Assembly (NCBI GenBank): GCA_004431415.1
Contig: QPMI01000638.1
Span: 1-64,000, forward strand
Length of the DNA: 64,000 bases
Origin: Cyanophora paradoxa CCMP329
Taxonomy: Eukaryota > Plantae > Glaucophyta
Direction of reading: 5' to 3'
The notes beneath the pieces were generated by a model. The model made no database searches, was not told the DNA's origin, and saw only the letters and a list, made by a program, of their open reading frames with translations. Below are positions 4,616 through 28,438 of the stretch, piece after piece. How positions within the stretch are numbered: position 1 is the first letter of the stretch; each line of letters begins with the position of its first letter. The translations under genes were made by a program, and so were the position numbers.

Positions 4616-4636
4616 TCCTACTTAATAGAAAGAAAA

Positions 4637-5656: not shown

Positions 5657-5678
5657 TCTTTATATTACATAGACAATA

Positions 5679-6747: not shown

Positions 6748-6782
6748 CTTTATAATAGTAAAAGATTGAAATCAAGCAGTTG

Positions 6783-9648: not shown

Positions 9649-9697
9649 CCCAATTTACTCTACTTATAGAGATTTATTAAATTTGAGTTAAGTAAAG

Positions 9698-11235: not shown

Positions 11236-11658
11236 AAATTCAGGACTTCTGATGTATGGTGCGCCAGATTATGGCGATTTTTTACAGTAGCTACTGTATC
11301 GTCGTATACATTGTAGAGATTTTTAACAGTAGCTACTGTATTTTCGCATTATTTTACTGTATGTAATATATACGTATATATACTTGATACCTATATCGTC
11401 GTGTAGATCTTTTCAAGCGCTTTCTAACGCTATTTTAGCGGGTGCGAGCGGATGATCTGGTGAGGAGATACAAGCGTTTGAAGATGGCGAAATCGCCACA
11501 GCAGCAACGCGATGCCCACAGTAGTAACGCGAACCGTCAAGTATATATATGCATATATATACACTTTTTTACCAGAAATTCCGTCTGAGTCAACCGGTCA
11601 TGCGGAGGTTTTGTGTATATCTGCAATATATATGTTTTCATATGCATCATAGTTTTAT

Positions 11659-11860
11659 TTGTCACCTGTGACATAATTAATGTGGTCACCGGTGACTTAA
11701 TTTGTCACCGGTGACATAATTTCTTATGTGAATGTGGTCAACAATGACTTAATTTGTCACCGGTGACATAATTTCTTTGGTGAATTCGGTCATCGACGAC
11801 ATAATTTTGTCACCGATGACATAATTTGTCACCGGTGACATAATTTGTCACTGGTGACAA
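11659..11860. repeat. Array of palindromic GTCACCGGTGAC-type units
   Basis: About 8 variants of (TAATTT)GTCACCGGTGAC(ATAA) at 19-40 bp spacing. Confidence 0.85.
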
Positions 11861-11890
11861 ATTAATTTATTTCGTCAAATTATCCTATTG

Positions 11891-11991
11891 ACCGAAACTT
11901 CACCGAAACTTCACCGAAACTTCACCGAAACTTCTTTGAAACTTCGCTCCGAAACTTCATTGAAACTTCACCGAAACTTCACCGAAACTTC
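11891..11991 (+). repeat. 11-bp tandem minisatellite ACCGAAACTTC, about 9 copies
   Basis: Directly visible, with a few variant units. Confidence 0.9.
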
Positions 11992-12152
11992 AATATCGGT
12001 CATATATATGTATTTTATCACCAACTGCTCCGTTTTTAATACTAAAAACAGATTCAAAATCCTCTCACCAGCGGCTATCAGGTTTCGGTGAGATCGGGCA
12101 CTAACAAAATAAAGAATTGACAAGGATTTCCTGGATTCTCTCAACTTCTGCT

Positions 12153-12395
12153 ATGGATCCCATCTACCAAGACCCTGCTATCATCCATGCTGCCCAATCA
12201 GACTGGATCCATGATTTCAAAACTGCTTTCTATTACAATTTCTTCATGTCACAGCCAGAGCATGTGAGACTGTTCTTTGTTTATAATTACCAGCTGGTTT
12301 CAAACCTTGAAACTTTCTTCTTGGAAATTATTGAAAAAGATAGACAAATGAGGAAAATTCGCCAGAGGTCTAAGAGATTCCGAAAGCGTTGTTAA
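12153..12395 (+). CDS. Hypothetical protein with basic C-terminus
   Basis: ATG at 12153 preceded by an AGAATTGAC early-promoter-like motif; convergent with the integrase. Confidence 0.55.
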   Translation: MDPIYQDPAIIHAAQSDWIHDFKTAFYYNFFMSQPEHVRLFFVYNYQLVSNLETFFLEIIEKDRQMRKIRQRSKRFRKRC

Positions 12396-12396
12396 T

Positions 12397-13795
12397 CTAT
12401 TTCCTCTGCCCACTTCGTAGATTGAATCGAGTTTGGGGTGCAGTATATGTTTCCTTGGTGGTTGAAAAGTCATTATACCATCTCTGACTGTTAACTTCTG
12501 ATAATTTCTGGGTTCCTGCTATGGTCAACTTCTTTAATTCTTTCTCTACTCTACCCTTCTTTTGTGCTCTTGCTTCTGTAAGGGGTTCTTTTGGAACTTC
12601 ACTTGCTTTTTCTATGCCCTCCTTTCTGATTGCTGAATCAACCCTGGCTTCCTCTTTTGCCTGTTCAAGGGCATCCACTGTGGGAGTTTCATGATACTCA
12701 ACACCTTTAATGGGCAGCAGTTCATGAAAAGCGAATCTACCATCAACTATCTCACCACTGGGACTTCTGATTCTGAACTTGAAGCCCTCTCTGCCCTCCA
12801 CACTATAAACAATTCGAGACCAATTAACTCCCTGCTTTGCAAATGGGTTCTTTTCAACTTTCACTCTCACAAACATTCCAGGTTTCAGGGCATCAAGATA
12901 CTCAATCGATTTCTTGAATCTCTGATCCTCCATATTCACTATCTCTTTGTAGTGGGCTTCTGTGGTCTCTGCTGGTTTTCTCTTGGTTGCAGAGTGAATG
13001 GTATTATTATAATTAAACTCAATATCACCCAACACATCAAAAAATCGTGCAGTATTATTTGCAATGCAGTAGTTTGTGATCAATCTCTTGATCTGTCTGT
13101 TAAAGGCTTCAATTCGACCTTGGGTTCTGTGATCTGCAACATCACTTAGTTGATGCTCAATGAATTTCGTTCCCAAATAATCTGTGAATAACACATTGGT
13201 AAATTCGCTTCCACTATCACTCTGAATGCGAACAATAGGTCTGGGGACTCTCTGTTCAAGTTGCTTGAATGCTGCAAGTGTAGTAAGAGCACTTTTGTCT
13301 CTCATTGGAATAATGAACCCTGTTCTCAGGGTTGACTCCATTGCACTCATAAATGTATCATAACCATCATTCTGCTTTTTGTATGCAGGAAAGAAGAGCA
13401 GATCAATCACATAGGTATCAAGGGGTTGCCTAATTGGAATCATGGATCTCTCTTTCGAGATAGGGTGGGTGCATTAATTTGGACAACCTCCTGCTTATCA
13501 TACCATTCTCTCATCTTCTTGTAGTTCTCCTCTGGTAGTTCCTGTCTCATTGCAGTAAATCCCTTGTAGCCTGTCCTGGGATCATAGAACTTCTTAGCAA
13601 TCTTTGACTCTTTTGGTGCTGTCTCAGCTGGGAGTGTCTCTGGGATTAATTGCTTGACCATCTCTGATCTTTTAATATTCGACTGCTCTTCTCCTCCACT
13701 GGAACTGTGATGGGCAGGATATTCCCTCGATCTTCAATTGCCTCTTTTCTCACAATTCTTGGTGGTTGTCTCAATCCTATTTGTGTAGAAGGCAT
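12397..13795 (-). CDS. Retroviral-like (rve, DDE) integrase of Polinton type, frameshifted at the 5' end
   Basis: YVIDL (D), IQSDSGSEF (D), QGRIEAFNRQIK (E) and YNNTIHSATKRKP. The N-terminal FYDPRTGYKG lies in ORF 13440-13661. No chromodomain is visible. Confidence 0.92.
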
Positions 13796-13978
13796 CTTTA
13801 CCTTATCTCTCATATAATAAATGCAAGAGTCTGTGTGGAAGGAGAACACAATTCCAAACTACTTTGCAATTGAGCCCAATGATCCAGGATTAAGATGTAT
13901 ATGGCTGCTGCATTTAATTCGCGGTTTGTTACTTCTTGGAGAGCGAAACCAAAGAAAAAGAAAGATCAATGAAGTAGA

Positions 13979-16900
13979 TTAGAGCCCAAATGGAATGCTG
14001 TGAATTCCATCGTCTAATATCTTCCTTTTGCTATCGAGTTGGTTTAGAGCCACCCTTCTGCTCTCCAAATCATATAGGTTGTGGTCTTGCCTTCGCTTGT
14101 TTACTACTGCTACTGTTTTGGTGATGCCTTCAAACAGGCATCTTTTGAAATCATCAAAGTGAACCTCTTTTGAGGAAGTCCCAGACATCTTTATTTTATC
14201 AAAGGTCTCAGTTCTGAAAGCATAGAGTTTCGATCTCAGACCTACATACTCCACAATCTTTGCATTGGGAAACTCGTTTTTATATTTACCTGGAATCAAA
14301 CGATTGCTCCTATCAAAGAGAGGGTGGGAGGGATCATAATTACTGCAATCCAGGTGTTCAGAAATTCGCTTCATCTCATTATTTAGATCATTGGTATGCA
14401 GCAGTAGGCAGAAAGAATCTGTATCATGGAATAGTAGCTCTGCTGTTTCCCAAGTTCTCCTCACCACATCAAAAAAGAACCTGCTATTATGGAGTTTCGC
14501 AAAATCCAGCACGAAAGCACCAATTGCAACAGGTTTATCTAAGTGAACATGCTTGGAATACATCTCAAAGGCAACAGCATTTTCGTTTAATACATTGGTT
14601 GCCTTGATGAGTGGACTTGCAGCATATTTCTTGCAGAGTTTCTCACTGTTTGCAATCTTTACCACAGAGCGACCCCTGCATGATTCGAGGCATTTACCAT
14701 AGATTGCATTGTTCATTAATTTAAAGAAGTCACTCTCGAATCTGGACATAGATTGGCGCCTCAATTTCGTATTTAGATCAATATAACTATTCATAAATGC
14801 AGAGGTTGCAAATGAGAGAACCCTGTGAACCTTCGTGATTATAATACCTTTGCTCACAAGATAGACCAAGAGAGGTTGGGAAATCACATAGTTGTTTTTG
14901 GGTGAGAATGTTGCTGTGAGTTTGGGGTCTTTGCTTATCTTCTCACCTGTGATATCCAGTAACTTTCTTTGATACCCACCCAGCATTTCGGTGGTGACAT
15001 GCTCTTTATTCACTACAAGTGGAAAATCGTAATGATCTGTGAGAGTTTGTGGGTATTCCAGGTCAACTTCAATGAAGGCACTTCGTCCTGGGGTCTCTTT
15101 AAGTGCCTCTGAGACATCTTCCCATCGAAAATCGCCAATGGGCAGTTCTTGACTGAGAGCATAACCATACAGATTATTTGCATCCAAGAGAACTATATGG
15201 TCATCTGGGTTTTCCACCTTTGCATATCGAGTAGGCATTGTAGCAAACCCACCTCGAATTGCCCTCTCAATAAATTCGTATTGCCCTACATCACTGATCT
15301 GCTCAATCTTTGCTCTGGTATAAATTAGCATTGCATCCCAGGATAATCCAGGAGCCGAAACATAATGGGCAGGATCTAATCCATATTGGGAAAACGCCAA
15401 TTCTCGGAAAGTCTGGAATTTACCCATTAGATCACTTGCATCCACTGCCTGGAAGTCCATGAAATGCGAAGCATCAATGAATTTCCACATGCCCCATTGC
15501 AGGGAGAGGTATTGGTCGAAATTCTTGCTCAGAATCTCAACACGAAGTCTATCATCTTGCTGTGCAATTTTGCGGAATATTTCGTGTCCACATTCATCCA
15601 TGTGATCCACCACAATTGCTACCTTGGTTTGCTTTGAGATTCTTCTGTGGAGGTTGCAGTTTCGGCATGCTTTCCCAATAAATGCTCCTGATTGATGACA
15701 ATGGTCTCTCACTGGGAAATTCTCATGGGTAAATCGTTCGGCACAGATATAACAGTGTTTAGTGATCTTGTATTGTGCTTTCTGCTCTTCTGTGAGTGGG
15801 TGCATTGGAATATTGGTGAATAGAGTGCGGATTACTTGGGGTCTGATCTCTGTGAGAGTGGTAAACAGAGCACCAAGTGGATCTGATCCTCGAAATGATG
15901 AGAGATCACCTCATCCCCCATCACAACTGTTAGAGAAACCGATTTTACCTCTCTTTTACTGCGGTTCTCATCAATTGGAACCGAGTGACTATCCATTTTT
16001 ACATAGCAGATAGTGGGAAGCCACACAGTTTTGCGAAGGTGTTGAAGCCCAAATGCAATTTGACTTCCAGATTTCGGGCATTTACCTTTGCTCTCCCTCC
16101 AATCAATGCAGCGATTGGCTTCTAAGTGAATGTCCAGCTTCTCCTGAGTTCTGAAACGAGACAGGCAGGTCTCACAGTAATAAATGCGACCATCATGGGC
16201 TTTATCAAAGGTGGTTTTCAGGAGTCTACTCAGAGACATGATGGTGATATAATGCCCTCTATCATCCTCTTCGTTTTCGATTAATAAAAGGTTAATCTTG
16301 GTCTTTCTCCTGGGGTTGCTGGATTGATGGAGAGGATAGAAACACTGTGCTTGATTATCTGCACCATAAATGTTGATACTCAGTTCAGGGTTCTGCTCCT
16401 CAAATCGATCAATAACCTCTGCATCACAGGCAACTGGAAACTGGATGCCTTCGAAATTGAGTTCGTTTAACCATCTTCTATACTGGCTGGGTTCATTGCT
16501 CTTGTGTTTATTAATATCATTTCGGTGCAGGTAAGCCAAGATTGCATACTTGAAGCAGTCTTGACCATCAATATTCTTCACATTCACAGTTGCTCTCTTT
16601 GATCCAATCCACTCAGGTGTTGAGAAGAAGCAACCACCCACAGGAGCATAAGACATTATAACCACTCTCAGCATCTCAATGCGATCCAGTCTGTAACTGT
16701 CCACTTGCATCATCTGCTCCTGCATGGATTGAAGGGCATTTCGCAGTTCAACATCAATATTTCGTGATCTTGTGATGACAAAGTAATCACTATAAATGAA
16801 TTTGGTGATCCACACCCTTGGATCACTCACTTTGGTGAATTTACAAATGAAGGTCAACCGAGTCTTAATTGCTCTCAGGTCTTGGAGTTTCTGTCTGAGT

Positions 16901-17259
16901 CTCTGAGGTAGAGTGGGTGCAATTCTCTCCAAGAATTCAATCCCATCTTGGATAACCTCCCCTCTTGCTCGATAGGTTAACCAAGAATATGCTTTGTTCA
17001 TGGCTTCCCCATCCTCAATCTCGGGTTCAATTGTTCCCAACCTTAAACCTTCATCCCTGAATTCCTCCATTTTCTCAAAACGATCATAGAGGCGATTTGT
17101 AATTTCTGTGAGTTGAGATAATCTTGGTCTCCTATCCAAGATTGCTGCCTGGCGATCATATTCGAATTCTGTAATATCACCAGTGACTAAAAGGGTTCCT
17201 AAAAGACCGAGTATTTCGTTTTTCTTTTCTTTGATGATTCTATTGGATTGGCGGGGCAT
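13979..17259 (-). CDS. polB: Polinton-type family B DNA polymerase (N-terminal region, vOTU-like domain, EndoVII-like Zn finger, Pol), frameshift at ~15830-15880
   Basis: Pol motifs DANNLYG, KLMNNAIYGK, DTDS and GLRSKLY. Also NIDGQDCFKYAI...GHY and CYIC...VRDHCHQSG...AC..CN. Confidence 0.93.
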
Positions 17260-17315
17260 CTTTTACTTTAAGGGAACATATTATTTTTGGGCGTTTTAAA
17301 CGCATTTCGCATTTT

Positions 17316-17507
17316 TCAGGTTCTAATGATTCGCACATTCGTGCCTTTGGAGACATATACATTTACTGTGTCGAGTCTGCTTGCATAGAATCGCTTCTTT
17401 TGATATGGTCTACCATTAATCGCTCTGATCTTTGCAATATATTCCGCCACCTCTGCAATATCATTATTTTCGACCAGCTGCCGCTGAATTTCGTCGAAAT
17501 AATCCAT
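17316..17507 (-). CDS. Small hypothetical protein
   Basis: 63-aa ORF with AAAATTGA 49 bp upstream. Confidence 0.5.
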   Translation of the reverse strand: MDYFDEIQRQLVENNDIAEVAEYIAKIRAINGRPYQKKRFYASRLDTVNVYVSKGTNVRIIRT

Positions 17508-17555
17508 GTTCTGTCAAAGTCAAAGGGAAAACGCAATGAACCCTTAAATCGCCAG

Positions 17556-17563
17556 TCAATTTT
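17556..17563 (-). promoter_or_regulatory. AAAATTGA giant-virus-type early promoter motif
   Basis: AAAAATTGACTGGCGATTTAAGGG on the minus strand, upstream of the small ORF and PolB. Confidence 0.6.
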
Positions 17564-17649
17564 TGTCAAAACACACCGATTTGCGATACGTTTTTATATT
17601 GTCCGATAAAGAATCGAAAAAGTCATCGAACCACAGGGGGGAGTCTGTG

Positions 17650-17810
17650 GTTAATTGGGTGTGACGCCTGTGACGCCTGTGACACCTTTTTTCAAAGGTT
17701 TGTAGATTTTTGAAATTTTAAAAAGTTTGAAAGTAGGCGTCACAGCCGTCACAGGCGTCACACTCAATAAAAAAGGTGTCACAGCTGTCACACAAACCAT
17801 TTACAGTAAG
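17650..17810. repeat. Internal copy of the TIR TGTGAC palindromic module
   Basis: Near-identical to ~1510-1690, in the same orientation as the left TIR. Confidence 0.9.
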
Positions 17811-17861
17811 GTTTTTAAAAAATAAGAAATTCAATCAGTATTAGAATCGATTCTGTTTTGT

Positions 17862-19980
17862 TTACTCATCCCCACCTTCAACATCACTGTCATCCACCAA
17901 CTTGCGACTATGCTTCTTTTTGATCCCAAAGTAACCACGAGCAAGAACACCATTGACTCGCTTTCTCTCAGCCTTCACATTAAAGACTTCGCGAAGTCTC
18001 TTCAAGATAGTGCATTCTGTGATTTTCTCATCAGATTTGCCCATGTGATCCATCTTAAAGTGACTGATAATGGACTCACTTGTGGCGAAATCCCCTTGAC
18101 TCTTGGTGAGTTCATAACTCTCACGAATCCATTCTCCAATCTTGTCATTCTCATTGAAATATTCAACACCTTGATCAACAATGGACTGGGGTGGTTTGGT
18201 GACGAATTCATTGAGAGAATGGGTTCTCCACATTTCCAGGAGAATGGACATATGCGCCATTTTATAATCGTCATCATTCTTCATTAGGCGCATTAGAGTG
18301 GTGTCTGCTTTCTTCTCACCAGGCTGAGGATCGACCTTGAAGACATTTTCGAATCGGTAGTAGATAATTCGCCTTTGGATTGCTGCATCTGGTTTACTGA
18401 TTCCCAGGTTGTCATTTGTGGACAAGAACAACTGGAACATGGGAATGAATGTAACAAGATCTTTGAAAAGAGCTCGAACCTTCATCTCATTCCCACCAGT
18501 AACCTGTTTGATTTTGTTCAGTTGAAGCATATCACCATCTTCTGCTTCATTACTGAAAACAATTCGTTTACCAAGAATGCAAGCGAGTTCTGGGAAGCCT
18601 CTGACGAACTCTTCTTGGTTTAGTCCAATATGTCATGTCCAGTGACCCATAATACTCACCAAATGTGTCTTTCACCAACTCTTGGAGCAGTGATTTCCCA
18701 TTTGCTCCAATTCCAGTCCAGCAAGTGTATCTCTGATTTTCTGTCAAACCACTCAGGGCATAGGCGATTAATCCCAGCATGAATTCGCGGTCTGTATCCG
18801 ATTCAATAATATCTGCATAGATGGATTTAATCTTTGCAACCTTCTCTTGGTCAATTTCTGTGGTGTAATCGTAGCCAACAGTCTTACTCACCATATCATA
18901 TGGGAGTCCCTGTCGAAAAGTCATGGAGTTCAAGTCAAATACACCATTTGTGAACCCAATGATGTTGGGAACAGTATCAAGTCTCTCGAAAAAGGTCTTG
19001 TCACTGAACAGAACTGAAAGATCAGACATAAGTGCAGTTCTGTATGTAGTCTGTTTGAGGCTCTTAGCAATTCCCAGCAGAATCTTTGACCTTTCCTCCA
19101 AGGAATTGCGGTTCTCTTCATCACGAAGAGCTCTCTGTGCGAGTTGAACAGAACGTTGAAGATAAACTGGACAGACCTTGCAGCTCAAACAGAGAAAGAT
19201 TCGCTTCCCAGTTTCATCCATCTCCCAAATCCCACATACATCATTGAACTTGAACCAGGTCTTGTTGGAATACTTGTATTTGTCTTGCAGAACAAGATAG
19301 GCAACCTGTGCAACATCATAATGGGCACCATCAGATCCAGCAGACCGATCAATCAGATTTTCGATATTCGCATCTGTCTCTTCCTTCACACGAATTGTGA
19401 TAAGTCGCTTCTTGCAGTTTGCACTGTAACTCGAAACAATATATTTGTCCTTCTCCTTCCCTTGAACAATATACCAATTGTTCGAGTCATGGCTTCCCTT
19501 GCAGCAGGGACAGACCAGACCTTTGTTCTCAGCAGTGAAATTGTATCCCATCTTGGTCTCATTGATGATTGTGGGCAAGATGAAACCGAATTCTTCGAGT
19601 TTAGAAAGAATATGTTTCTGCAAATTCTCCTCAGCGCACCTTGCATAATAAGAATGTGCACCTTTGGGGAATTCGTAGTTTTCAACAATCCACTTTTGCA
19701 ACTCAGCCGTGGGTTCATTTAACTCACACTCAGATGCCCATGGCTCTCTGATCCATGTTTTGTTGGGACTGGGGCAAACATTAATCACCCCAGCAGTCCC
19801 AGTGGATGCAATCGTTTTGCAGTCATCGAATTTATCCCAAGACCAGGTTCCGTCTTTATGAGCGAAAAGCGGTCTCTTGGTATCAGGATCAACAGGAATT
19901 ACGATATTCTCAGACAGGACATCGTCTTCACGAAGCCAGTCAACAAGGCGTTTCAGGGATTTCTTGGCGGCAGCGTTCAT
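17862..19980 (-). CDS. D5-like primase-helicase (SF3), frameshift at ~18600
   Basis: D5_N-like IGFTNGVFDL...FRQG.PYDMVS.TVGYDY, Walker A GIGANGKS, IKQVTGGNEMKVRALF, AIQRRI, and a Zn-finger CPCCKGSH. Confidence 0.9.
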
Positions 19981-20037
19981 TTCAACAATCGGGGGCTTCT
20001 TATCCTTAATGGAGAAATTAATTTCTCCGGATCCTTG

Positions 20038-20045
20038 TCATTTTT
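20038..20045 (-). promoter_or_regulatory. AAAAATGA(C) early-promoter-like motif
   Basis: 58 bp upstream of the helicase ATG, next to the perfect palindrome GGAGAAATTAATTTCTCC (20011-20028). Confidence 0.5.
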
Positions 20046-20174
20046 TGGCGGCTAACCTTTAAATACCTTTGGGTTTTCCGATTGGCGCTCGATATATGGT
20101 AATGATCCATCGAAAAGTCGATTGATCATGGTAACAAAAAGGATTCAGCGGATATTTGGGACTTTGGGGGCGGT

Positions 20175-20402
20175 TCAGTATTTCCTGGGACGACCTACTG
20201 GGCGTTTTACTGGATTATTGGGATCCATCTCAGCAGCTTTCCTGCGATAATATCGTTCCAGTGCCTTTTTACGATATAATTCACGAAACTCCTCATCTTG
20301 ATAGCGTTTCTGGAAGTACAAGCGGTCATACAACCTTTTCCTCTCATTGGGATCCATTTCGCTCATTGCAAGTTCGAATTCGACCACAGATTCAGTTTCC
20401 AT
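20175..20402 (-). CDS. Small basic DNA-binding protein with C-terminal AT-hook
   Basis: Ends in KRPVGRPRKY after an R/K/Y-rich helix; promoter motif at 20484-20491. Confidence 0.75.
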   Translation of the reverse strand: METESVVEFELAMSEMDPNERKRLYDRLYFQKRYQDEEFRELYRKKALERYYRRKAAEMDPNNPVKRPVGRPRKY

Positions 20403-20622
20403 TTGATATGTTCCTTATATTTGGACGAGAAAATAATTTGTCCGGGTTCACCAATCAAACACACCTTACCCTTAAATCCCTTGTCATTTTTTGCAGATCG
20501 AGACCAGTTCCTGTCTACGCTTTTTTATTGCGGCTTCTGTCGCATATTCAGCGGTTTTCCTGTCAAGGATAGCATAGATCTCTGGGAGACTGAGCATTCG
20601 ATACTATCTACCAAGAAATAAA

Positions 20623-20898
20623 TTATTGCCTGTTCAGTGTTGGTGAGTGTGAGAACGATTTGCGCCTTAATTCTCTGCTATCGGTTCTGCGAAATCGACG
20701 GACTGGGGGTGGATCATCAGGTTCAGGTGTATGTGGTCGAGATTCAATTGATCCAGTCGAGTTTCTCCTACTACTTATGCTCCCTGTACCTTCACCATCT
20801 GATATCTCAATTTCGACCTCTGTCTCACAGCATCCACTATGACATCTACTCACCACATGTAAATTAAACATCTCAATCATCTGTCTGATTAAATCCAT
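20623..20898 (-). CDS. Small hypothetical protein (CHSGCC motif, Ser/Arg-rich tail)
   Basis: Co-oriented ORF in the morphogenesis gene run. Confidence 0.55.
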   Translation of the reverse strand: MDLIRQMIEMFNLHVVSRCHSGCCETEVEIEISDGEGTGSISSRRNSTGSIESRPHTPEPDDPPPVRRFRRTDSRELRRKSFSHSPTLNRQ

Positions 20899-20927
20899 GA
20901 TACTCTCTCTCTATTAATGTGAGATAA

Positions 20928-21662
20928 TTAAAGCCATACTCGTCGTTTATATACTGTGGGGGCAACACCTTTATCAACCTCTGCTTTGGTAGCACCAGGT
21001 TCAATGGTGCCCTTCTGGGTTTTGGTCTTCATCTCATCAACTGCCTGCTCATCAATTTGAGTCTCTTTCTTACCAATGAATTGCTTATCTGGGAGACCAG
21101 CGATTCCCATTCTATACACCTCCTTTCGCAGCATCTCCTTTAATTTCGCTCTCTCTTTCTTCTCAGAGACATACTGTTCGAGAGCACTCGATTTCGCTTC
21201 CAGATCTTTAAGTTTCGCAGTCATTTCGTCCCATTGGGCTTTGGGAATTCGATGAATATTCTGTGTAGGTGCGACCTTGTAGGTGACCTCACCAGCCATG
21301 GATTGAATTACCTTGTCTGATTCTTTGGAGACACCTTCACCTTTGCGAGCAAGTGAGAGATCTTGCAGACCCAGTCCTTTGTCATCAGCAGCACCAATAA
21401 TTCGACGAGCACCTTCACCAACTGCTTTCATCTTAGAGGTTTCGGGCGAAATATTCAACTGGTCACTTGTGGATGTCTGGGGCGCTTTATCATCTGGTGA
21501 TTCTTCGTAAGCAGCATTGAGGGGATCTTCCTGTTGCTGTGATGCTTTCACTTCATTGACACCATTGAATTTCAGGGGCTCTGTGTTAATAGAACCGGTT
21601 CCAGAGGATGCAGAATATGACATAGCACCAGCAGGAACACCAACTTTGCGTTTGGAAGGCAT
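20928..21662 (-). CDS. Hypothetical Lys/Glu-rich protein, possible virion core protein
   Basis: Intact 244-aa ORF directly downstream of the packaging ATPase; function is a guess. Confidence 0.6.
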   Translation of the reverse strand: MPSKRKVGVPAGAMSYSASSGTGSINTEPLKFNGVNEVKASQQQEDPLNAAYEESPDDKAPQTSTSDQLNISPETSKMKAVGEGARRIIGAADDKGLGLQDLSLARKGEGVSKESDKVIQSMAGEVTYKVAPTQNIHRIPKAQWDEMTAKLKDLEAKSSALEQYVSEKKERAKLKEMLRKEVYRMGIAGLPDKQFIGKKETQIDEQAVDEMKTKTQKGTIEPGATKAEVDKGVAPTVYKRRVWL

Positions 21663-21690
21663 TGTATATTTATTAGAAGCAGAGATTATT

Positions 21691-22473
21691 TTATAAACCT
21701 CTCTTATATCGCATCAGTTTATTCGAATGAACACCACTCTTGACCTCTTTGGGGGCTTCCTCTTTCTGTGGAGGTGGTAGTTCGTCCTCTTTCTTTTTGG
21801 GCTTCCTGTGGAACCGAGGAAATGCGAAATCTTTCACCAGATCCGCTTTATCAACATAATAGTTCACCGAATAATTTGCAGAAGACCACACAATATATTG
21901 GTAGGAGTGCACATACTCCTCAAACATCTTATAGAAATCGTCTTTGTTTCGCATGATATTATATTCCTCTTCAATTGCTTCGAGCTCTTTGCGATTAGCA
22001 GCACTCAGGAACACAGCATAATCCGAATTTACTCGAATTGTTGAAGAAACCTTCCTTAGCTTCTGCGTGATGCAGATAATCGAGATTTTCGAGTGGCGAC
22101 CTCTGGAATAGAGAGATCCCACGATTTTGTCTCGGGTCAAATCAATAATTTCGTTGTCTATGAGATCATCTAAGACCACACAGAGGTGATTGACAGGTTC
22201 CCCTTTTTCGATTTTCTCCTGCCTTTCATCCAGTAGTTTGGAAATGTAAGCAGCATCCCATTTCCCGAGTTGCAATGTTGCTACTGCATCCCAGAAATGA
22301 TTGAAGGACGTCCCACTCACTACAAGAACAGTATCAATCTTTTTCGCATCATGCAGCTGTTTCAACCAATATTTCACACATTCTGACTTACCTGTTGCAG
22401 ACTTTCCTATGAAAAGAGCACGAAATGGTGGGGTTATCATTTCACCAGCCACAAATTCTTCCAAGTCACCCAT
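21691..22473 (-). CDS. A32/FtsK-HerA-like DNA packaging ATPase
   Basis: Walker A GKSATGKS, Walker B CVVLDD, SRGRHSKISIICITQ and IRVNSDY. Likely start is MGDLEEF at 22473. Confidence 0.92.
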   Translation of the reverse strand: MGDLEEFVAGEMITPPFRALFIGKSATGKSECVKYWLKQLHDAKKIDTVLVVSGTSFNHFWDAVATLQLGKWDAAYISKLLDERQEKIEKGEPVNHLCVVLDDLIDNEIIDLTRDKIVGSLYSRGRHSKISIICITQKLRKVSSTIRVNSDYAVFLSAANRKELEAIEEEYNIMRNKDDFYKMFEEYVHSYQYIVWSSANYSVNYYVDKADLVKDFAFPRFHRKPKKKEDELPPPQKEEAPKEVKSGVHSNKLMRYKRGL

Positions 22474-22480
22474 AGTTTCA

Positions 22481-23218
22481 CTATAAAGACGAAAGAAATG
22501 TTTTAACAAAGCGTTTAATATCGGTTTCAGTGTAAGGCACACGAAGAAGTTTAATATTGTTTGCCTCACAGTATCGGTTCTTTATTCCATCACGAACTAA
22601 TATTTTTTCGAACTCTTCCTGTCCTCCAAATTGATCCACGGGCTCAAAGTGCTGTCTACCATCAAATTCAATGGCGATTCGTAAGGAAGAAATGTAGAAA
22701 TCAAAGCGAAGAGGATGCCGTAACCGACAGTCTGGAAACGAATATTGACGCTCGAAATCTAAATCCAGCTCTTTAAGAATATTTGAAATGCACTCTTCAC
22801 CTTTCGAACATTGACATCTTGGACACCCAGAAGCTCTTGCATGAGTCATTGCTTTCTGTTCAAAGTCATTCATGCAAGTGTTACATTTGATGGTCACTTT
22901 GTTCTTCATTCCTTTATAGACTGTATTTGTGTAGTCATATCTATCTCCATGAATCTTTTTGCACAAATTTACAAACTCTTCTTGTGTCCATTTGCAGTTA
23001 TTTGCAGCTTTAAGTTTTCCATGTGTAGGACAGCCACTTTTCTGAATGATGTGATTGAATGGTGCTTGTTCAAAGAATGTTTGACATTGTTTACAGTAGA
23101 TCTTGACCTTTGTTTTCGTATTTTTGAAGATTGCTTCCTTATAATCATACAAGTCACCATGAATTAATTTTGCCTTCTCAACAAACAGCTCTTGTGTATA
23201 GTGAGTTCTCTTAGCCAT
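22481..23218 (-). CDS. Homing-endonuclease-like protein: two DUF723-like repeats plus a Vsr/PD-(D/E)XK-like nuclease
   Basis: SKGE..I...L, LRFDFYI...IAIEFDGRQHF and RDGIKNRYC..NNIKLLRVPY. Confidence 0.85.
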   Translation of the reverse strand: MAKRTHYTQELFVEKAKLIHGDLYDYKEAIFKNTKTKVKIYCKQCQTFFEQAPFNHIIQKSGCPTHGKLKAANNCKWTQEEFVNLCKKIHGDRYDYTNTVYKGMKNKVTIKCNTCMNDFEQKAMTHARASGCPRCQCSKGEECISNILKELDLDFERQYSFPDCRLRHPLRFDFYISSLRIAIEFDGRQHFEPVDQFGGQEEFEKILVRDGIKNRYCEANNIKLLRVPYTETDIKRFVKTFLSSL

Positions 23219-23352
23219 GTCACAATATCTGAGGATCTTCTAAAATATCATGTCATTTTTTTCTTAAATGCATTCTTCTAAATCGTTCATGGCTTTGTAG
23301 ATCTTTCTTATTAAAGATAGATAAAAATAACGAAACGTTACTGATCATGGTT

Positions 23353-24726
23353 TTACAGATTAATTCGTCGGAGCCCATCTTTGTCAACGATAATGAAACT
23401 GTGCATGAGAGCACGAACATTAACTGTGATTGTCTGGTCAGAAGGCATGTATAGAGTGAGGAAAGAGGAGGAGGAGTTCGTGAGATCAACATAGCCAGAC
23501 TGGGCAATGTTGCGAATCGCTTTCTCTCCATCAACACAGAATGGTAGACCACTGAGGACATATTTGTCTGCAACCTTGTCCATATTCGAGCACTTGAAGG
23601 CATCCGCAATTAATTCGGCACCTTTGAGGAGAGGGATGGGCTCAGTAGCATAGAGACGTTGACCATTAATTTCAACAGTGAAAGTAATGTCTTTTGAGTT
23701 AGCATGCGTTTTTAGGACACTGTGGGAACCATTGAAACCATCAATACCTGCGGCATCACGAACTGAAACAAGAAGACCATAGACAAGACCAGAGATCTGT
23801 GACAGGTTAATACGATTTGGTTGAGCATTGCCTTTTGCAGCAAAATTGACACTGTCAACAAAACCAATATCCAGAGCAGGAATAGCCATACCAGTGGTCT
23901 TCACCTTCTCAATGACAGTAGCAAACAGTTCATCAGAAACATTAATAGCATGCATGTAAAGACGAGGAGAAGTGACTTTAATTTCGGGGGTTGTTGTTGC
24001 ACCAATTCCAAAAGTGGTGATCTGTTGACCAACATGGGCAAGAGTAGCATTAGCAGTAGCACCAAGTCCATCATCCTCTGTCTTATCAGCAGCTGTTCCA
24101 CCAACAACTGGAAGAGCACGACCACCATAAGAAGTCTCAACATAACCCTTTCCAGCATCCTTGAACCAGACAGTTACCACCATTTCTCCTGAGAGAGCAC
24201 CAAGAGGTAGGTAGTGGTTTAGCCATGGGACTGGGATTTCAGTGAAAAATGACCCACCAAGTCGGTTGGTTCCATGGGCAGGGATACCATGAACCATTCC
24301 CATTGAACGCTTCTTCTTGGCGAGTTGATCCTCACTGTAATAGATAAGAGGGAAATGAGCAAGGAAATCAGAAGGCACATGGAAGGTGTAAGATCCATAG
24401 GTGATTTCAAGTCGAGAGACAAGAGCACCAACTGGGCGAACGTATCCATTGCGAACAAGGTCGGTATCACCAGCAAAAGTGACAGCTGGAAGGTCAAACG
24501 CAAGTTCGAGTTTTCCACAGAAATTGTAGCGAGGGAGCTTGAAACTAATGCGATTTCCAGCATTATTCTCGAAAGTGTTGCTTGGGTTCACAACAACAAG
24601 AACTGGCTTCGACTTGGATTCAAGACCAAGCATGAGAGAGTTGTCCAAGAAGAACGCCTTGGCTTCTTCTGGGGTTGTTAGAGCTTCTTTCAGAGAAAGA
24701 CGTTGGAGGGTCGAAGTAATATCCAT
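23353..24726 (-). CDS. Major capsid protein (double jelly-roll, putative)
   Basis: ~457 aa, beta-rich, between the penton and ATPase genes. ISFKLPRYNFCGKLELAFDLP resembles the N-terminal strands of NCLDV-type MCPs. Confidence 0.75.
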   Translation of the reverse strand: MDITSTLQRLSLKEALTTPEEAKAFFLDNSLMLGLESKSKPVLVVVNPSNTFENNAGNRISFKLPRYNFCGKLELAFDLPAVTFAGDTDLVRNGYVRPVGALVSRLEITYGSYTFHVPSDFLAHFPLIYYSEDQLAKKKRSMGMVHGIPAHGTNRLGGSFFTEIPVPWLNHYLPLGALSGEMVVTVWFKDAGKGYVETSYGGRALPVVGGTAADKTEDDGLGATANATLAHVGQQITTFGIGATTTPEIKVTSPRLYMHAINVSDELFATVIEKVKTTGMAIPALDIGFVDSVNFAAKGNAQPNRINLSQISGLVYGLLVSVRDAAGIDGFNGSHSVLKTHANSKDITFTVEINGQRLYATEPIPLLKGAELIADAFKCSNMDKVADKYVLSGLPFCVDGEKAIRNIAQSGYVDLTNSSSSFLTLYMPSDQTITVNVRALMHSFIIVDKDGLRRINL

Positions 24727-24780
24727 GATTATCTCTTTTATTATACTGCAACATAAAAAATTCACCAATGATCCTTGATT

Positions 24781-25791
24781 TTACGCAAAATTCGCAATAA
24801 CCGGATATGATGGATGTGTTTCCGCCATTCTCCTCTTGAAATATTCATACACAGGATCACCAGCAGGTTCATCACCATATCGAATTTCGAAGGTGAGGTG
24901 GACAGGTTGACCCTCGAAATCAATTGGTTCATTAACTGCATTCACAATATCAACCGAAAATGTGGAAAGTCCCAGATTCTTGTTATAGTATTTATAAATC
25001 GGATGGGCTTCTGTCGAATTATAAACGACATGCTCACCATAATCTTTATCTGGAACAACGATTTTGTGGAAATATCCAGTGAGGAGACCATCACCACATT
25101 GAACCAGATCACCCAACTCCTTTACTCTCACAAACAGAACACTATCCCTGGTCTTTTCAGGTTCAAATGAAGATATGATACCATGCACCATCGACCCAGT
25201 AAAGATACCATCAGTCAGAGTATTATAAACTTGTGATTGGATTGGGGTGTTACCATATCTCCCAGGATCAAGACCAAGCAGTCGAGCAGAACTCAAAAAC
25301 CTCTGAATCTGCGCCTGGTTTGGGTTAATTGCGGTTGAGAAAGCCAGGTAAAACGGTATGGTTGAATGGAATATAACTCGTTTCAGTGTATCATCCCATT
25401 TACAGCGAATTGCTACTGGTGGCTCTCTCAATGCAAGTTTGGAGTTAATTACATTCACCAGTTGTTGGTGGTTTTGAATGGGTGTGCTGCGACTTATCAC
25501 AATGTGTTTCCATTGCTCATAATCGGCAGCAGGTCGATCAGTTGGAATACCAGTGCTTCCTGCACCAGAATAATATTCAGACCAATAAAGGTAGATTGCA
25601 TTATCTATTGTCACATCTCCTGGTTTGGTTTCACCACTCACCATGGGAATGCTGTTATAGAATTCTGCTGAAACCAGTCTTACTGCTCTCACAAATTCAT
25701 AGGTGCTGGGGAGGCGAGCAATAAAACTCGAAGTAGGTCCATCTCCCGAAATTGTATTGAAAGAGCTCACTTCGATGTAATCCACAGGCAT
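24781..25791 (-). CDS. Minor capsid (penton-like) protein A
   Basis: VRLVSAEFYNS, LFVRVKEL and FSVDIVNAVNEPIDFEGQPVHLTFEI. Confidence 0.75.
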   Translation of the reverse strand: MPVDYIEVSSFNTISGDGPTSSFIARLPSTYEFVRAVRLVSAEFYNSIPMVSGETKPGDVTIDNAIYLYWSEYYSGAGSTGIPTDRPAADYEQWKHIVISRSTPIQNHQQLVNVINSKLALREPPVAIRCKWDDTLKRVIFHSTIPFYLAFSTAINPNQAQIQRFLSSARLLGLDPGRYGNTPIQSQVYNTLTDGIFTGSMVHGIISSFEPEKTRDSVLFVRVKELGDLVQCGDGLLTGYFHKIVVPDKDYGEHVVYNSTEAHPIYKYYNKNLGLSTFSVDIVNAVNEPIDFEGQPVHLTFEIRYGDEPAGDPVYEYFKRRMAETHPSYPVIANFA

Positions 25792-25819
25792 CTTCTTTTA
25801 TCTATAAACATATATTAAA

Positions 25820-26752
25820 ATGATTCGGCTGGTCAATATAGATAGCAGAGACCGATCAGATGGACAAATAGAAAACTCCTACAAAGTTTCACTCACAACC
25901 CCAGTGACCAAACCAAGAGAATGTCGAGTTTTGTATGCAGAGATCCCCAACAGCATCTATAATTCCATTGGAACAGACCACCTTCTTGTCAGATTCTTCT
26001 ACCAAGGCATCTCTGAAACCAAACAGGTCTTCCTTCTCCCAAGTGGTTATATTAATCAAGGGCATTTCGGGGTCACCAGTCCATATAATTATGGTCTGAA
26101 TTTCACCTTTACTGGAAGCAACAATCTCACATATGCATTCAAGGTCTACTACAACCCTACTTCCTACAAATTGGAGTTTTACAGTAATGTTCAATTCGAG
26201 ATGGTAGCATCTACACAGAGATTGGGTAAACTTCTTGGGGTTAGTTCTGTGGAGTGGGTCGCTTCAATTGAGCAAACCTACGATTTCCCAGAGTCTGCAA
26301 GGTCTTTATATGCCCCCGAGAATTTCCTCTATTTTGCAGGAATCCCAATCACCCCAAACCATCCCCAATGGGGAATCACATTCACAGGATATGAATTCGA
26401 GGCATCTCGCTTAAACTACAAGTTAGAAGCATCCAAGATGACAGACATGAATGCAGAACAGTATTTATACATGCACATTAAAGAACTCTCCCCATTTGCT
26501 ACAAACCACAATATTGTCCCAAGATCACAACCACAGAATCAAGGGGCGATTCTCAGATTGCAATTGAGTAAAGATATTGGACAGTATGTTTATCACAGTG
26601 GAGAGCACAGTGAATACATAAAAATAACCGATCGAAACCTTGTGATTAGAGAGTTAACAGTTGAGTTTCGAGATTATTATGGTGATCTTGTTGATATGAA
26701 TGGAATAGACAACTCATTCCAGTTGGAGTTCTTGGCTATTGGTAATGATTAA
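25820..26752 (+). CDS. Minor capsid (penton-like) protein B
   Basis: LVNIDSRDR, YAEIPNS, YLYMHIKEL and LTVEFRDYYGDLVDMNGIDNSFQLEF. Confidence 0.8.
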   Translation: MIRLVNIDSRDRSDGQIENSYKVSLTTPVTKPRECRVLYAEIPNSIYNSIGTDHLLVRFFYQGISETKQVFLLPSGYINQGHFGVTSPYNYGLNFTFTGSNNLTYAFKVYYNPTSYKLEFYSNVQFEMVASTQRLGKLLGVSSVEWVASIEQTYDFPESARSLYAPENFLYFAGIPITPNHPQWGITFTGYEFEASRLNYKLEASKMTDMNAEQYLYMHIKELSPFATNHNIVPRSQPQNQGAILRLQLSKDIGQYVYHSGEHSEYIKITDRNLVIRELTVEFRDYYGDLVDMNGIDNSFQLEFLAIGND

Positions 26753-27002
26753 ACCGATCCTGATAGAAAAACTCCCCATCTGTCTCGAAAATATTAAGAA
26801 GGGGACTCTTAGCATCCTCTGTATACCATCGGCGAATTGTCTTATCCCATTTAGCACCATTCTTTTTCAAGAATCTACAAAGAGTTGATCTCCTTGTAAT
26901 TCGCAATCCCATCTCTTGAAAGATCTCATAATGATCTTGCATTCTATTCACAATCAAGATGTAAGTCCCATGGAAATTGTGATATTGCTGGTTAATCGGC
27001 AT
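26736..27002 (-). CDS. Small protein with DUF5710-like motif
   Basis: KKNGAKWDKTIRRWY; AAAATTGA at 27035-27042 supports the ATG at 27002. Confidence 0.55.
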   Translation of the reverse strand: MPINQQYHNFHGTYILIVNRMQDHYEIFQEMGLRITRRSTLCRFLKKNGAKWDKTIRRWYTEDAKSPLLNIFETDGEFFYQDRFNHYQ

Positions 27003-27049
27003 GTTTCCTTTACAGCATGATGGGAAATCGTTTGTCAATTTTTGGCGAA

Positions 27050-28432
27050 ACGAGAGTATCTCATGAGATAGATGAGAGAATAACAGGTGTGTTTTCAGGG
27101 TTGGAGAAATCGGAGAAACATAGAGTATTGCGATTTCCGAGTTAGTTGACACTGAGAAATTCAGATACTGAAAATGAAAATGGTCTTACTCTTAATGGTC
27201 AGATAATCGGGTGTGACACCTATTTAATTGACTGTGACGCCTCTTTAATTGACTGTGACGCCTGTGACGCCTGTGACGCCTACTTTCAAACTTTTTAAAA
27301 TTTCAAAAATCTACATACTTCTGAAAACAGCCGTCACAGCCGTCACAGGCGTCACACCCAATTAAAAATGGAATCTCTTTCTCTTACTGAGATTTTCGAG
27401 AATATATTCTTGTCTTACTGAAATCCGTCTTGTGACACCTCTGACACCTCCAAAACACTATCCATTAATCAACCTTTTTGAAAATGCGAAGTTGTCTTAC
27501 TGGAAATGGTCTGCAATTTCGCTGTGACACCTAATTTAATTGTGTGTGACGCCTGTGACGCCTGTGACGCCTATTTTCAAACTTTTTAAAATTTTCAAAA
27601 ATGACAGACTTCTGAAAACAGGCGTCACAGCCGTCACAGGCGTCACAGACATTCTACCCTCTTACTGCTTGTCTCAAAAACAAAAATATCTCTTACTGAA
27701 TATCATTTGAATACTACCTGTCACACTTGATCTCAATTATTCTGTTTTATAGAACATATGCAATCTAATCGATTGTTCAATTGGAGACCATGCACCTCTG
27801 TGACACTTTTCGATCTAAAATATACATCCGCAATCTCATCGATTGTTTAATTGGAGACCATGCAACTATGTGTCACTTTTTGGGTGCAAAAGTGCCCATC
27901 CCCATTATAATCGATTGTTTAATTGGAGATAATGCAACTCTGTGACAGTTTTTGGGTGCAAAAATGCAAATCAGCAATCTCATCGATTGTTCAATTGGAC
28001 ACAATGCAACTCTGTGACACTTTTTGCGTTTTTCGATACAGAATGGGCGGTGGTCTACTTCAATACAAGAGAGATATATCGAGTTTATGCGAATTTATGC
28101 AATTTAATCGCGATTATATCGATCTTTAAGTAGTTTAATGCAAATTAATCGCAGTTTTATATGTAATCGACAAAGAACATAATCAATCGATATAAGATCA
28201 ATTGATGCAATCGTAAATATGCATAAAGTTAAACGCGTTTTTCATTTTTTAATACAAAGTTTGCATTAATTTATACAAAGTTTGCATAAAAAGTTAAAGA
28301 ATTTAATCGATAAATACGTATTTTAGTATTAATTTTGACACATATGTATAAACTTATTTAAATCCTGAGTGAATCGAGATCGCGAAGCGATCGAGATGAA
28401 CGAGGGATTTAAATAAGTTTATACATATGTGT
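27050..28432 (-). repeat. Right terminal inverted repeat
   Basis: Reverse complement of 444-1817. Confidence 0.95.
28338..28432 (+). other. Right terminal fold-back hairpin (3' end of the plus strand)
   Basis: Perfect 28-bp stem (28338-28365 with 28405-28432) enclosing a symmetric 39-nt GA-rich arm. Confidence 0.92.
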
Positions 28433-28438
28433 ACCGTC
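28433..28438 (+). repeat. Right target-site duplication ACCGTC
   Basis: Matches 438-443. Confidence 0.95.

What the first reader, a model, noticed from the sequence alone, without database searches (positions are those of the whole stretch)
28338..28432. Strand-specific 95-nt terminal hairpin with three tandem sheared G.A pairs and a GCGAAGC cap: a candidate new telomere/priming system
Seen: the plus-strand 3' end folds symmetrically as a 28-bp perfect stem, T.G, GA/GA, 2 bp, GA/GA, 3 bp, GA/GA, 6 bp and a GAA loop. Every GA tandem is in Py-GA-Pu context. The same sequence forms the minus-strand 3' end at 444-539. Established: tandem sheared G.A pairs in Py-GA-Pu context and d(GCGAAGC) are exceptionally stable in DNA, whereas the complementary TC/TC version is not. 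Sheared-purine hairpins characterise the 3' overhangs of terminal-protein-capped Streptomyces telomeres, which have been likened to parvovirus ends. Inference: the 3' ends become single-stranded and fold back so the terminal 3'-OH pairs inward. This would allow either hairpin self-priming or Streptomyces-like end-patching after replication from an internal origin, unlike the standard adenovirus-like Polinton model.
Basis: partly seen in the sequence, partly recalled or inferred. Interest (0 to 1): 0.92.

Follow-up and report, generated by a model that had tools for sequence, protein, structure and literature searches.

The report
One-strand G·A hairpin virus ends
A 28-kb polinton-like virus inserted in the genome of a likely algal host ends, on both 3' strands, in a 95-base palindrome whose tip is built from G·A mismatch motifs known to stabilise single-stranded DNA, so the free virus's ends are predicted to fold back and likely prime their own copying.

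Summary
The hairpin is real. At 28338-28432 there are 28 perfect pairs, T·G, three GA/GA tandems (all Py-GA-Pu) and a GCGAAGC tip. Its last base abuts a 6-bp target-site duplication, and the other end (444-539, minus strand) repeats it with one extra base. It terminates a 27,989-bp integrated polinton-like virus (integrase, pPolB, D5 helicase, packaging ATPase, likely capsid). Short-read contigs of the organism that holds it show sister ends with a second stem (5 of 28 pairs swapped on both arms) and, by inferred join, a different cap built from GAA/GAA and GGA/GGA sheared-pair motifs. Structure, not sequence, appears to be kept. Terminal palindromes and hairpin priming were already proposed for such viruses in a 2026 preprint, and this scan noted palindromic ends in other genomes. 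The one-strand G·A design was not found in print. Only the 39-nt cap is strand-specific, since both strands can form the outer stem. The polymerase keeps terminal-protein and protease domains, so protein priming is not excluded. Best reading (45%): the single-stranded 3' end folds back and self-primes. Rivals: Streptomyces-like patching (20%), closed poxvirus-like telomere (15%), cap or integrase substrate only (13%). Nothing functional is shown.

The parts
28338..28432 (+). Right terminal hairpin, 95 nt, at the 3' end of the plus strand; last base abuts the TSD
28338..28365 (+). Inner arm of the 28-bp perfect stem (pairs with 28405-28432)
   Evidence: a second stem type with paired changes in sister ends
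28366..28404 (+). 39-nt purine-rich cap (27 of 39 purines): T·G, three GA/GA tandems, GCGAAGC tip at 28382-28388
444..539 (-). Left terminal hairpin, same cap at the 3' end of the minus strand; 96 nt, one extra base in the terminal arm
438..443 (+). Left copy of the 6-bp target-site duplication
28433..28438 (+). Right copy of the 6-bp target-site duplication
444..28432 (.). Whole integrated polinton-like virus, 27,989 bp, 40% GC in 62-65% GC flanks
444..1817 (+). Left terminal inverted repeat (1374 bp)
27050..28432 (-). Right terminal inverted repeat (1383 bp)
17651..17784 (+). Internal copy of a ~134-bp unit of facing 9-bp iterons around an AT-rich core, beside the helicase gene; four more copies in the TIRs (1219-1352, 1510-1643, 27245-27378, 27536-27669). 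Candidate duplex origin (inferred)
27760..28026 (+). 3.7 copies of a ~72-bp tandem repeat inside the right TIR (mirror copy 852-1114)
12397..13661 (-). rve-type integrase in two frames (break near 13440); a 74% identical relative is one ORF
   Evidence: (Pfam rve E 0.0012, below cut-off)
13979..17259 (-). Protein-primed-type PolB in two frames: TP-like domain, OTU-like domain, endonuclease-VII-like insert, degenerate exonuclease, intact polymerase motifs
17862..19980 (-). D5-like primase-helicase in two frames; N-terminus resembles Prim-Pol (lead only) and looks shortened
21691..22473 (-). A32-like packaging ATPase
   Evidence: Pox_A32 E 5.9e-11
22481..23218 (-). Homing-endonuclease-like gene
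23353..24726 (-). Likely major capsid protein; closest relative (59%) is a Cyanophora paradoxa EukProt entry

Best explanation
This is the palindromic tip of an integrated polinton-like virus, and its G·A-rich cap is likely selected so that each 3' end, when single-stranded, folds back into a predicted nuclease-resistant hairpin whose paired 3'-OH would prime synthesis of the complementary strand. Shown: the sequence design, its position flush with the TSD at both ends, the same orientation (G·A strand at 3') at 2 of 2 ends, and paired stem changes in sister ends. Inferred: single strands arise by strand displacement or excision; the virus's exonuclease-dead PolB or a host polymerase extends the folded 3' end inward, giving a molecule closed at that end; the newly made 3' end is again the G·A version and can fold in turn. 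Inferred and weakest: the closed end is reopened on the 3' side of the stem, which keeps the cap's orientation, and the missing 95 bases of the 5' strand are then filled by terminal-protein priming or by host gap repair at integration.
For: Design far beyond chance and found only at the two termini. Only GNA triloops form the stable DNA mini-hairpin, which resists 3' exonuclease, and the one RNA counterpart quoted (the GAAA-loop form) is far weaker (PMC13037366, passages). Py-GA-Pu tandems form sheared, cross-stacked pairs (PMC10085684 and PMC8163305, passages). Sister ends: a second stem differing at 5 of 28 positions appears on the inner arm (X2, X6, X7) and with the matching complements on the outer arm (X1, 3 contigs). 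One X6 contig spans 28338-28431 without gaps and with 11 other letters (10 expected from that stem). A second cap, seen as two overlapping loose ends in X1, X2, X6 and X7, would fold with a GAA triloop and GAA/GAA and GGA/GGA internal loops, the sheared-pair zipper motifs of PMC11014236 (passages). A perfect 28-bp stem ending in the last base offers a ready primer, as at the parvovirus 3' end (PMC1185569, passages). The PolB has lost its exonuclease motifs and about 95-105 residues of that domain (span 43 against 137 and 147 in two relatives). The same model was proposed independently for Halocafeteria elements.
Against: No experiment and no raw reads. The PolB keeps a TP-like domain with Ser188/Tyr189 in the alpha2-beta4 loop (low-confidence model, mean pLDDT 41) and OTU-like Cys235/His336, so ordinary protein priming at the tip remains possible and would need no hairpin primer. 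The end starts with a dinucleotide repeat, which is linked to protein priming in Polintons (PMC4196379, passage). In Halocafeteria the palindromes go preferentially with non-pPolB replicases, whereas this element has a pPolB. No HUH nickase was hit among 33 element ORFs, so the resolving enzyme is unidentified. The endonuclease-VII-like insert is only a weak candidate (Pfam E 0.0048, PHROG E 3.9e-5) and such inserts are read as homing endonucleases. Priming needs only the outer stem, which both strands can form, so it does not by itself explain the G·A cap. Palindromic arms can be homogenised by fold-back copying, so the paired stem changes are not proof of selection. The second cap's join, unit number and 3' orientation are inferred. 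No relative outside this organism was found with termini.
Confidence: 0.45

Rival explanations
1. Streptomyces-like end patching. Replication starts at the iteron units with the D5 primase-helicase and leaves 3' overhangs; the folded G·A cap is a protein-binding landmark, and the terminal-protein domain of PolB primes the fill-in; the hairpin's own 3'-OH is not the primer.
For: TP-like and OTU-like domains kept; five origin-like iteron units, with all 23 copies of the 8-mer core (both strands) inside the element and none in about 36 kb of host flank; D5 primase-helicase; single cap orientation at 2 of 2 ends; GNA loops closed by sheared G·A mark Streptomyces overhangs (PMC4513846, PMC5449611, passages).
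Against: The perfect 28-bp stem buries the terminal template bases and presents a paired 3'-OH. There is one palindrome of 95 nt against several in a ~300-nt overhang. The linking loop lacks the Gly/Pro seen in other D1 domains. The primase part is only an Atlas lead (0.89) and looks shortened.
Confidence: 0.2
2. Poxvirus-type covalently closed hairpin telomere: the free genome is sealed at both ends, concatemer junctions are resolved, and the mismatches serve packaging or maturation.
For: A32-like ATPase; mismatches in vaccinia hairpins are needed for maturation (PMC8956199, abstract); endonuclease-VII-like insert as a possible resolvase.
Against: Symmetric resolution gives both cap orientations, yet both ends here have G·A at 3' and the design favours one strand only; an rve integrase needs free 3' ends (established knowledge).
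Confidence: 0.15
3. The fold is a protective cap or a recognition structure (for the integrase, the packaging motor or a TP-PolB loading step) on displaced strands or overhangs, while all priming is by terminal protein.
For: Mini-hairpins resist nucleases and bind SSB poorly; the G·A cap lies 28 bp from the 3'-OH and is not needed for priming; the protein-priming parts are kept.
Against: A fully paired 3'-OH beside an exonuclease-dead polymerase would need active blocking to avoid extension (inference).
Confidence: 0.13
4. Neutral by-product: the palindrome arose by accidental fold-back copying and its mismatches are unselected, or the cap is a pair of duplex protein-binding repeats that happen to pair.
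For: The preprint raises accidental annealing as an alternative; symmetric GA/GA tandems are also short direct repeats.
Against: Three of three loops are GA/GA in the right context plus the most stable triloop; a sister cap of different sequence would use other sheared-pair motifs.
Confidence: 0.05

Closest known systems
Terminal palindromes of endogenous virophages (subtypes 1, 2, 5, 6) and PLV subtype 4 of Halocafeteria seosinensis (bioRxiv 10.64898/2026.07.28.741278; section 7 and passages read)
   Same: Palindrome inside the TIR next to the TSD; rve integrase; hairpin priming proposed.
   Different: The text mentions no mismatches, sheared pairs, loops or flip forms, and those palindromes go mostly with non-pPolB replicases. 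Their screen (at most 4 mismatches, gap at most 10, arm at least 20) would probably miss this cap, which has 7 non-Watson-Crick positions (inference). Their sequences (figure, supplements) could not be seen.
Typical Streptomyces telomeres (Tpg/Tap end patching; PMC4513846, PMC5449611, passages)
   Same: 3' strand folds with GNA loops closed by sheared G·A; terminal protein; internal origins proposed here.
   Different: One long rod, not several short palindromes; eukaryotic virus with a PolB-fused TP-like domain; 3' end fully paired.
Autonomous parvovirus 3' (left-end) hairpin, rolling-hairpin replication (PMC1185569, passages)
   Same: Paired 3'-OH at a terminal hairpin with purine mismatches; one orientation reported at that end.
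   Different: Parvoviruses are small single-stranded viruses with an NS1 nickase; this is a 28-kb capsid/ATPase/pPolB/integrase element and no such nickase was hit.
Polinton/Maverick protein-primed (racket) model and mavirus-like TP-vOTU-palm PolB plus S3 helicase (PMC11071308, section 7 and passages; PMC4196379, passages)
   Same: TIRs, 6-bp TSD, rve, TP-vOTU-PolB, short terminal repeat; exonuclease loss paired with a helicase as in mavirus.
   Different: A 95-nt terminal fold-back is no part of that model.
Poxvirus flip-flop mismatch hairpins (PMC8956199, abstract)
   Same: Mismatched terminal hairpin, A32-type ATPase.
   Different: Those are closed and occur in two complementary forms; here one form at both 3' ends and a one-strand design.

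Membership tests
Polinton-like viruses (rve-integrating Preplasmiviricota) | Terminal inverted repeats and 5-6-bp TSD | tested here: met
   1.38-kb TIRs, 6-bp TSD
Polinton-like viruses (rve-integrating Preplasmiviricota) | A32-like packaging ATPase | tested here: met
   Pox_A32 E 5.9e-11, above cut-off
Polinton-like viruses (rve-integrating Preplasmiviricota) | [quoted passage not shown] | tested here: inconclusive
   Atlas neighbours at 0.98 carry Capsid_N/Capsid_NCLDV (12-30% of members) but recognition was low; no Pfam hit; single-sequence model failed, pLDDT 32
Polinton-like viruses (rve-integrating Preplasmiviricota) | Retroviral-type integrase | tested here: met
   Pfam rve E 0.0012 (below cut-off), PHROG transposase E 8.5e-11; DDE assignment recalled; 6-bp TSD fits
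Polinton/Maverick in the strict sense | Protein-primed PolB with TP and vOTU domains | tested here: met
   DNA_pol_B_2 E 2.3e-12; OTU folds lead the list at Z 5-6.3, rmsd 2.9-3.9, 90-111 aligned; adintovirus and MELD PolB E 7.6e-12 to 4.5e-5; the TP part itself rests on alignment and low-confidence topology
Polinton/Maverick in the strict sense | Adenovirus-like maturation protease | tested here: inconclusive
   No hit among 33 element ORFs; the assembly has frameshifts
Polinton/Maverick in the strict sense | 5'-AG termini (recalled feature) | tested here: not met
   Both ends begin 5'-AC; a short terminal dinucleotide repeat is present
Halocafeteria-type palindrome-ended virophages/PLVs | Palindrome within the TIR adjacent to the TSD | tested here: met
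Halocafeteria-type palindrome-ended virophages/PLVs | Replication by non-pPolB genes (a preference, not a rule) | tested here: inconclusive
   Both a pPolB and a D5 primase-helicase are present
Halocafeteria-type palindrome-ended virophages/PLVs | Same integrase clade | not tested
Streptomyces telomere (Tpg/Tap) | GNA loops closed by sheared G·A on the 3' strand | tested here: met
   structure predicted from known chemistry
Streptomyces telomere (Tpg/Tap) | Several tightly packed palindromes over about 170-300 nt | tested here: not met
   One 95-nt palindrome; no other G·A hairpin in the TIR
Streptomyces telomere (Tpg/Tap) | Tpg and Tap proteins | tested here: inconclusive
   No such family hit in Pfam (33 ORFs) or PHROGs (10 ORFs); no dedicated search
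Streptomyces telomere (Tpg/Tap) | 5'-bound protein and 3' overhang in vivo | not testable with these tools
   needs free viral DNA
Parvovirus rolling-hairpin replicons | Terminal hairpin with paired 3'-OH | tested here: met
   predicted fold
Parvovirus rolling-hairpin replicons | HUH Rep/NS1 nickase | tested here: inconclusive
   no hit among 33 ORFs
Parvovirus rolling-hairpin replicons | Small single-stranded genome without its own polymerase | tested here: not met
   28 kb, encodes PolB, ATPase and integrase
Poxvirus-type closed hairpin telomeres | Flip and flop forms | tested here: inconclusive
   2 of 2 ends in the window have G·A at 3'; contigs cannot phase the cap across a 28-bp palindromic stem
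Poxvirus-type closed hairpin telomeres | Covalently closed ends | not testable with these tools
   needs free viral DNA

The most novel reading that the evidence does not exclude
This virus lineage has evolved a one-strand telomere, convergent with Streptomyces and parvovirus ends. The free double-stranded genome carries a 95-nt 3' fold-back whose cap is written in sheared G·A chemistry (tandem pairs in one family, G/A zippers in another, caps and stems exchanged as modules). That folded end both primes replication and is the substrate whose 3'-OH the integrase joins to host DNA, with the host copying the hairpin out into the palindrome seen beside the TSD.
Probability: 0.2. Interest if true: 0.85.

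Novelty: new variant of a known kind. Interest (0 to 1): 0.62.

Why it matters
How most polinton-like viruses start replication and keep their ends is unknown. Palindromic ends were only just reported, and they could be accidents. A cap whose mismatches all follow single-stranded-DNA chemistry on one strand, and which appears to be rebuilt with different sheared-pair motifs in a sister family, is direct sequence evidence that these ends are selected as folded DNA and says which strand folds. That gives a sharp, cheap test (natural G·A strand against natural TC strand, primer-free extension, cap orientation across copies) in a host for which many DNA runs exist. It also suggests that palindrome screens with tight mismatch limits overlook such ends.

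Tried and rejected
No whole genome is held for the window, so sister copies could not be read in full. Relatives with termini: exact cap core in viral contigs, 0 hits. Capsid protein in viral contigs, none confirmed; in metagenomes, none. Integrase in viral contigs, none. Inner-stem pattern in viral contigs: 51 loci, 34 distinct inner sequences, none with the mini-hairpin core, longest outer extension 10 bp. Half-stem pattern in metagenomes: 36 of 36 loci without a second arm (best 16 of 28). Second-cap motif in viral contigs: 1 locus, no surrounding stem. No RNA holder listed for the stretch. No strand-switch joint was listed, but this says nothing on flip/flop because the stem is nearly as long as the assembly word. 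The single-sequence capsid model was unusable. The little-finger fold expected for a TP domain was not among the 50 rows for a pLDDT-41 model; this is no evidence of absence. The endonuclease-VII-like piece had no match among solved structures. Rfam gave 15 matches, all below gathering score, mostly generic miRNA hairpins; an RNA role was rejected because the triloop type is DNA-specific and the position is the genome tip. ViennaRNA's DNA parameters cannot test the strand difference. Supplements of PMC12220804 held neither the TSD nor the terminal 9-mer (long files may be cut); supplements of the Halocafeteria preprint are closed and could show whether its palindromes carry G·A tandems. Searches that found no paper describing sheared G·A caps at virophage, PLV or Polinton ends: and the in-text search.

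Full report
Observation. All six GA halves are in Py-GA-Pu context. The fold has z = -13.8 and none of 200 shuffles matched it. The minus strand at 444-539 carries the same cap, with one extra base in a homopolymer run of the terminal arm. Given three 2x2 loops, the chance that all are GA/GA (or all TC/TC) is about 1-2e-6 from element composition and 3e-5 from the cap's own composition; this is a post hoc figure. Scanning every hairpin centre on both strands of the window found two or more such tandems only at these two ends, and none in 20 Markov controls of 28 kb.

One correction. The complementary strand also forms the 28-bp stem, and ViennaRNA separates the strands by only 1.9 kcal/mol because its DNA tables give GA/GA no special bonus. 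The asymmetry is confined to the 39-nt cap and rests on published chemistry. Of 64 triloops only GNA forms the mini-hairpin, GCGAAGC melts near 76 C and resists 3' exonuclease, and the RNA counterpart quoted (GAAA-loop form) is much weaker (PMC13037366, passages). Tandem Py-GA-Pu steps form sheared, cross-stacked pairs (PMC10085684, passages; PMC8163305, passages).

What it belongs to. The hairpins are the outermost bases of a 27,989-bp element (444-28432, 40% GC in 62-65% GC flanks) with 1.38-kb TIRs and the hexamer ACCGTC duplicated on both sides. Of 33 element ORFs scanned in Pfam, the informative hits were DNA_pol_B_2, D5_N, Pox_A32, patatin, F5/8 and AdoMet decarboxylase above cut-off, and rve below it; PHROGs supports the integrase and the primase-helicase (10 ORFs). 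The likely capsid protein has only two relatives among 1.84 billion representatives, the closer being a Cyanophora paradoxa entry at 59%, and its Atlas neighbours are NCLDV-type capsids (weak recognition). PLVs of glaucophytes with discoidin domains are mentioned in PMC12220804 (passages). So this is a polinton-like virus, likely in a glaucophyte or similar alga; the host is inferred. Integrase, PolB and D5 each lie in two frames. The TIRs differ largely by short indels (17 gap events, 13 substitutions), all contigs over 28245 lack one window base, and a 74% identical integrase is one ORF, so these breaks are probably assembly errors. That was not tested directly.

Sister ends. Fifteen of 24 listed runs hold at least half of the stretch's words, all under one organism label. 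Four were laid on 27900-28600; the output shows 24 of 63 loose ends and 32 of 530 pieces. First, a second stem that differs at 5 of 28 positions appears on the inner arm (X2, X6, X7) and with the exact complements on the outer arm (X1, three contigs). One X6 contig spans 28338-28431 with no gap and 11 other letters; its letters are not printed, but ten are expected from that stem, so its cap would differ from the window's by one base at most. Second, a different cap shows as a loose end after the inner arm (X1, X6) and one before the outer arm (X1, X2, X7). The two overlap by 11 letters. The shortest join is 29 nt and mirror-symmetric: a GAA triloop on a 4-bp stem, a GAA/GAA internal loop, 2 bp, and a GGA/GGA internal loop. 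GGA/GGA is the guanine zipper bracketed by sheared G·A pairs known from satellite III, where adenine zippers are noted as similar and the purine strand folds while the pyrimidine strand shows no clear melting (PMC11014236, passages). The join, the number of 7-nt units (three or more) and the 3' orientation of this cap are inferred. The places where contigs stop fit both stems occurring with both caps, if the assembly word is 31 letters (inference). Paired stem changes could come from fold-back copying alone, but a cap of different sequence using other sheared-pair motifs would be hard to explain without selection on a folded strand. Flip/flop cannot be read from these contigs. No relative with termini was found elsewhere.

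Replication genes. Against two full-length relatives the PolB keeps polymerase motifs A, B and C but has lost the acidic exonuclease motifs and about 95-105 residues of that domain (span 43 against 137 and 147); motif names are recalled. Its N-terminal part matches adintovirus and MELD-virus PolBs, contains an OTU-like fold (Z up to 6.3, rmsd 2.9, 90 aligned) with Cys235 and His336, and has a domain of the strand-helix order described for the terminal protein (model mean pLDDT 41). Ser188 and Tyr189 sit in the loop where the linking residue is expected, but without the nearby Gly or Pro (PMC11071308, section 7). Exonuclease loss paired with a helicase is known from mavirus. The D5 protein's N-terminus resembles Prim-Pol only as a lead (0.89). 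Five ~134-bp units of facing 9-bp iterons around an AT-rich core lie two in each TIR and one beside the helicase gene; all 23 copies of their 8-mer core are in the element. They look like duplex origins (inference) and carry no G·A tandems, which sets the terminal cap apart.

Mechanism. A strand released by displacement or excision has the TC version at its 5' end and the G·A version at its 3' end. The G·A end folds with its last base paired and pointing inward, a ready primer, as at the parvovirus 3' hairpin (PMC1185569, passages). Copying through gives a molecule closed at one end and a new G·A 3' end at the other. Resolving the closed end on the inner side would invert the cap, whereas opening it on the 3' side of the stem keeps the orientation seen at both ends here and leaves a 95-base gap on the 5' strand, which terminal-protein priming or host repair at integration could fill. 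I give this self-priming reading 45%. Streptomyces-like patching without self-priming (20%) fits the retained TP domain, the iterons and the GNA chemistry (PMC4513846 and PMC5449611, passages) but not the fully paired 3' end. A closed poxvirus-like telomere (15%; PMC8956199, abstract) predicts both orientations. A neutral by-product gets 5%. No nicking enzyme is identified; the endonuclease-VII-like insert in PolB is a weak candidate.

Comparison with what is known. A July 2026 preprint reports palindromes inside the TIRs next to the TSD in four virophage subtypes and one PLV subtype of Halocafeteria and proposes hairpin priming (section 7 and passages). Its text has no occurrence of 'sheared', 'mismatch', 'flip' or 'loop'; its figure sequences and supplements could not be seen. 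Its screen allowed four mismatches and a gap of ten, which this cap exceeds. Earlier notes of this scan list palindromic Polinton or PLV ends in other genomes (7 of 8 shown) and one-strand G·A hairpins at ends of other mobile elements; none shown combines the two, and I did not test them. Seven of my ten literature searches bore on this point and found no description of sheared G·A caps on such viruses. PMC11296320, PMC6061790 and PMC12085832 (passages) added nothing specific; PMC4196379 (passages) restates the Polinton racket model and its short terminal repeats.

Verdict. Observation confirmed; interpretation partly supported. It is a new variant of a known kind: a palindrome-ended polinton-like virus whose cap is written for one folded DNA strand, in an element that still encodes protein-priming parts. 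Function is untested. Interest 0.62.

Noticed in passing
window 1219-1352, 1510-1643, 17651-17784, 27245-27378, 27536-27669: Five copies of a ~134-bp unit: three 9-bp iterons facing three more across an AT-rich core; two per TIR and one internal beside the D5 gene. Origin-like; the 8-mer core is absent from the host flanks.
   Followed up: partly
window 13979-17259 (-): pPolB with a dead, partly deleted exonuclease domain but kept TP-like, OTU-like and endonuclease-VII-like parts; the usual Gly-Ser-Gly-Trp loop of one relative is replaced by a Gly-free loop.
   Followed up: partly
window 23353-24726 (-): Likely capsid protein with only two relatives among 1.84 billion representatives; may be an undersampled PLV capsid lineage.
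   Followed up: partly
window 9909-11235 (+): Patatin-like gene followed by an F5/8 (discoidin) gene; such fusions are noted for PLVs in PMC12220804.
   Followed up: no
window 1719-2123 (-): S-adenosylmethionine decarboxylase-like gene overlapping the inner edge of the left TIR.
   Followed up: no
window 11657-11992: Non-coding arrays of 19/52-bp and 11-bp units between the discoidin gene and the integrase.
   Followed up: no
window 24781-25791 (-) and 25820-26752 (+): Two divergently oriented ORFs that look like minor capsid proteins by a recalled N-terminal motif; no library hit.
   Followed up: no
window 36215-52430 (-): Very large host gene of near-identical fibronectin-III repeat blocks (1.5-3 kb duplications).
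   Followed up: no
   Followed up: no
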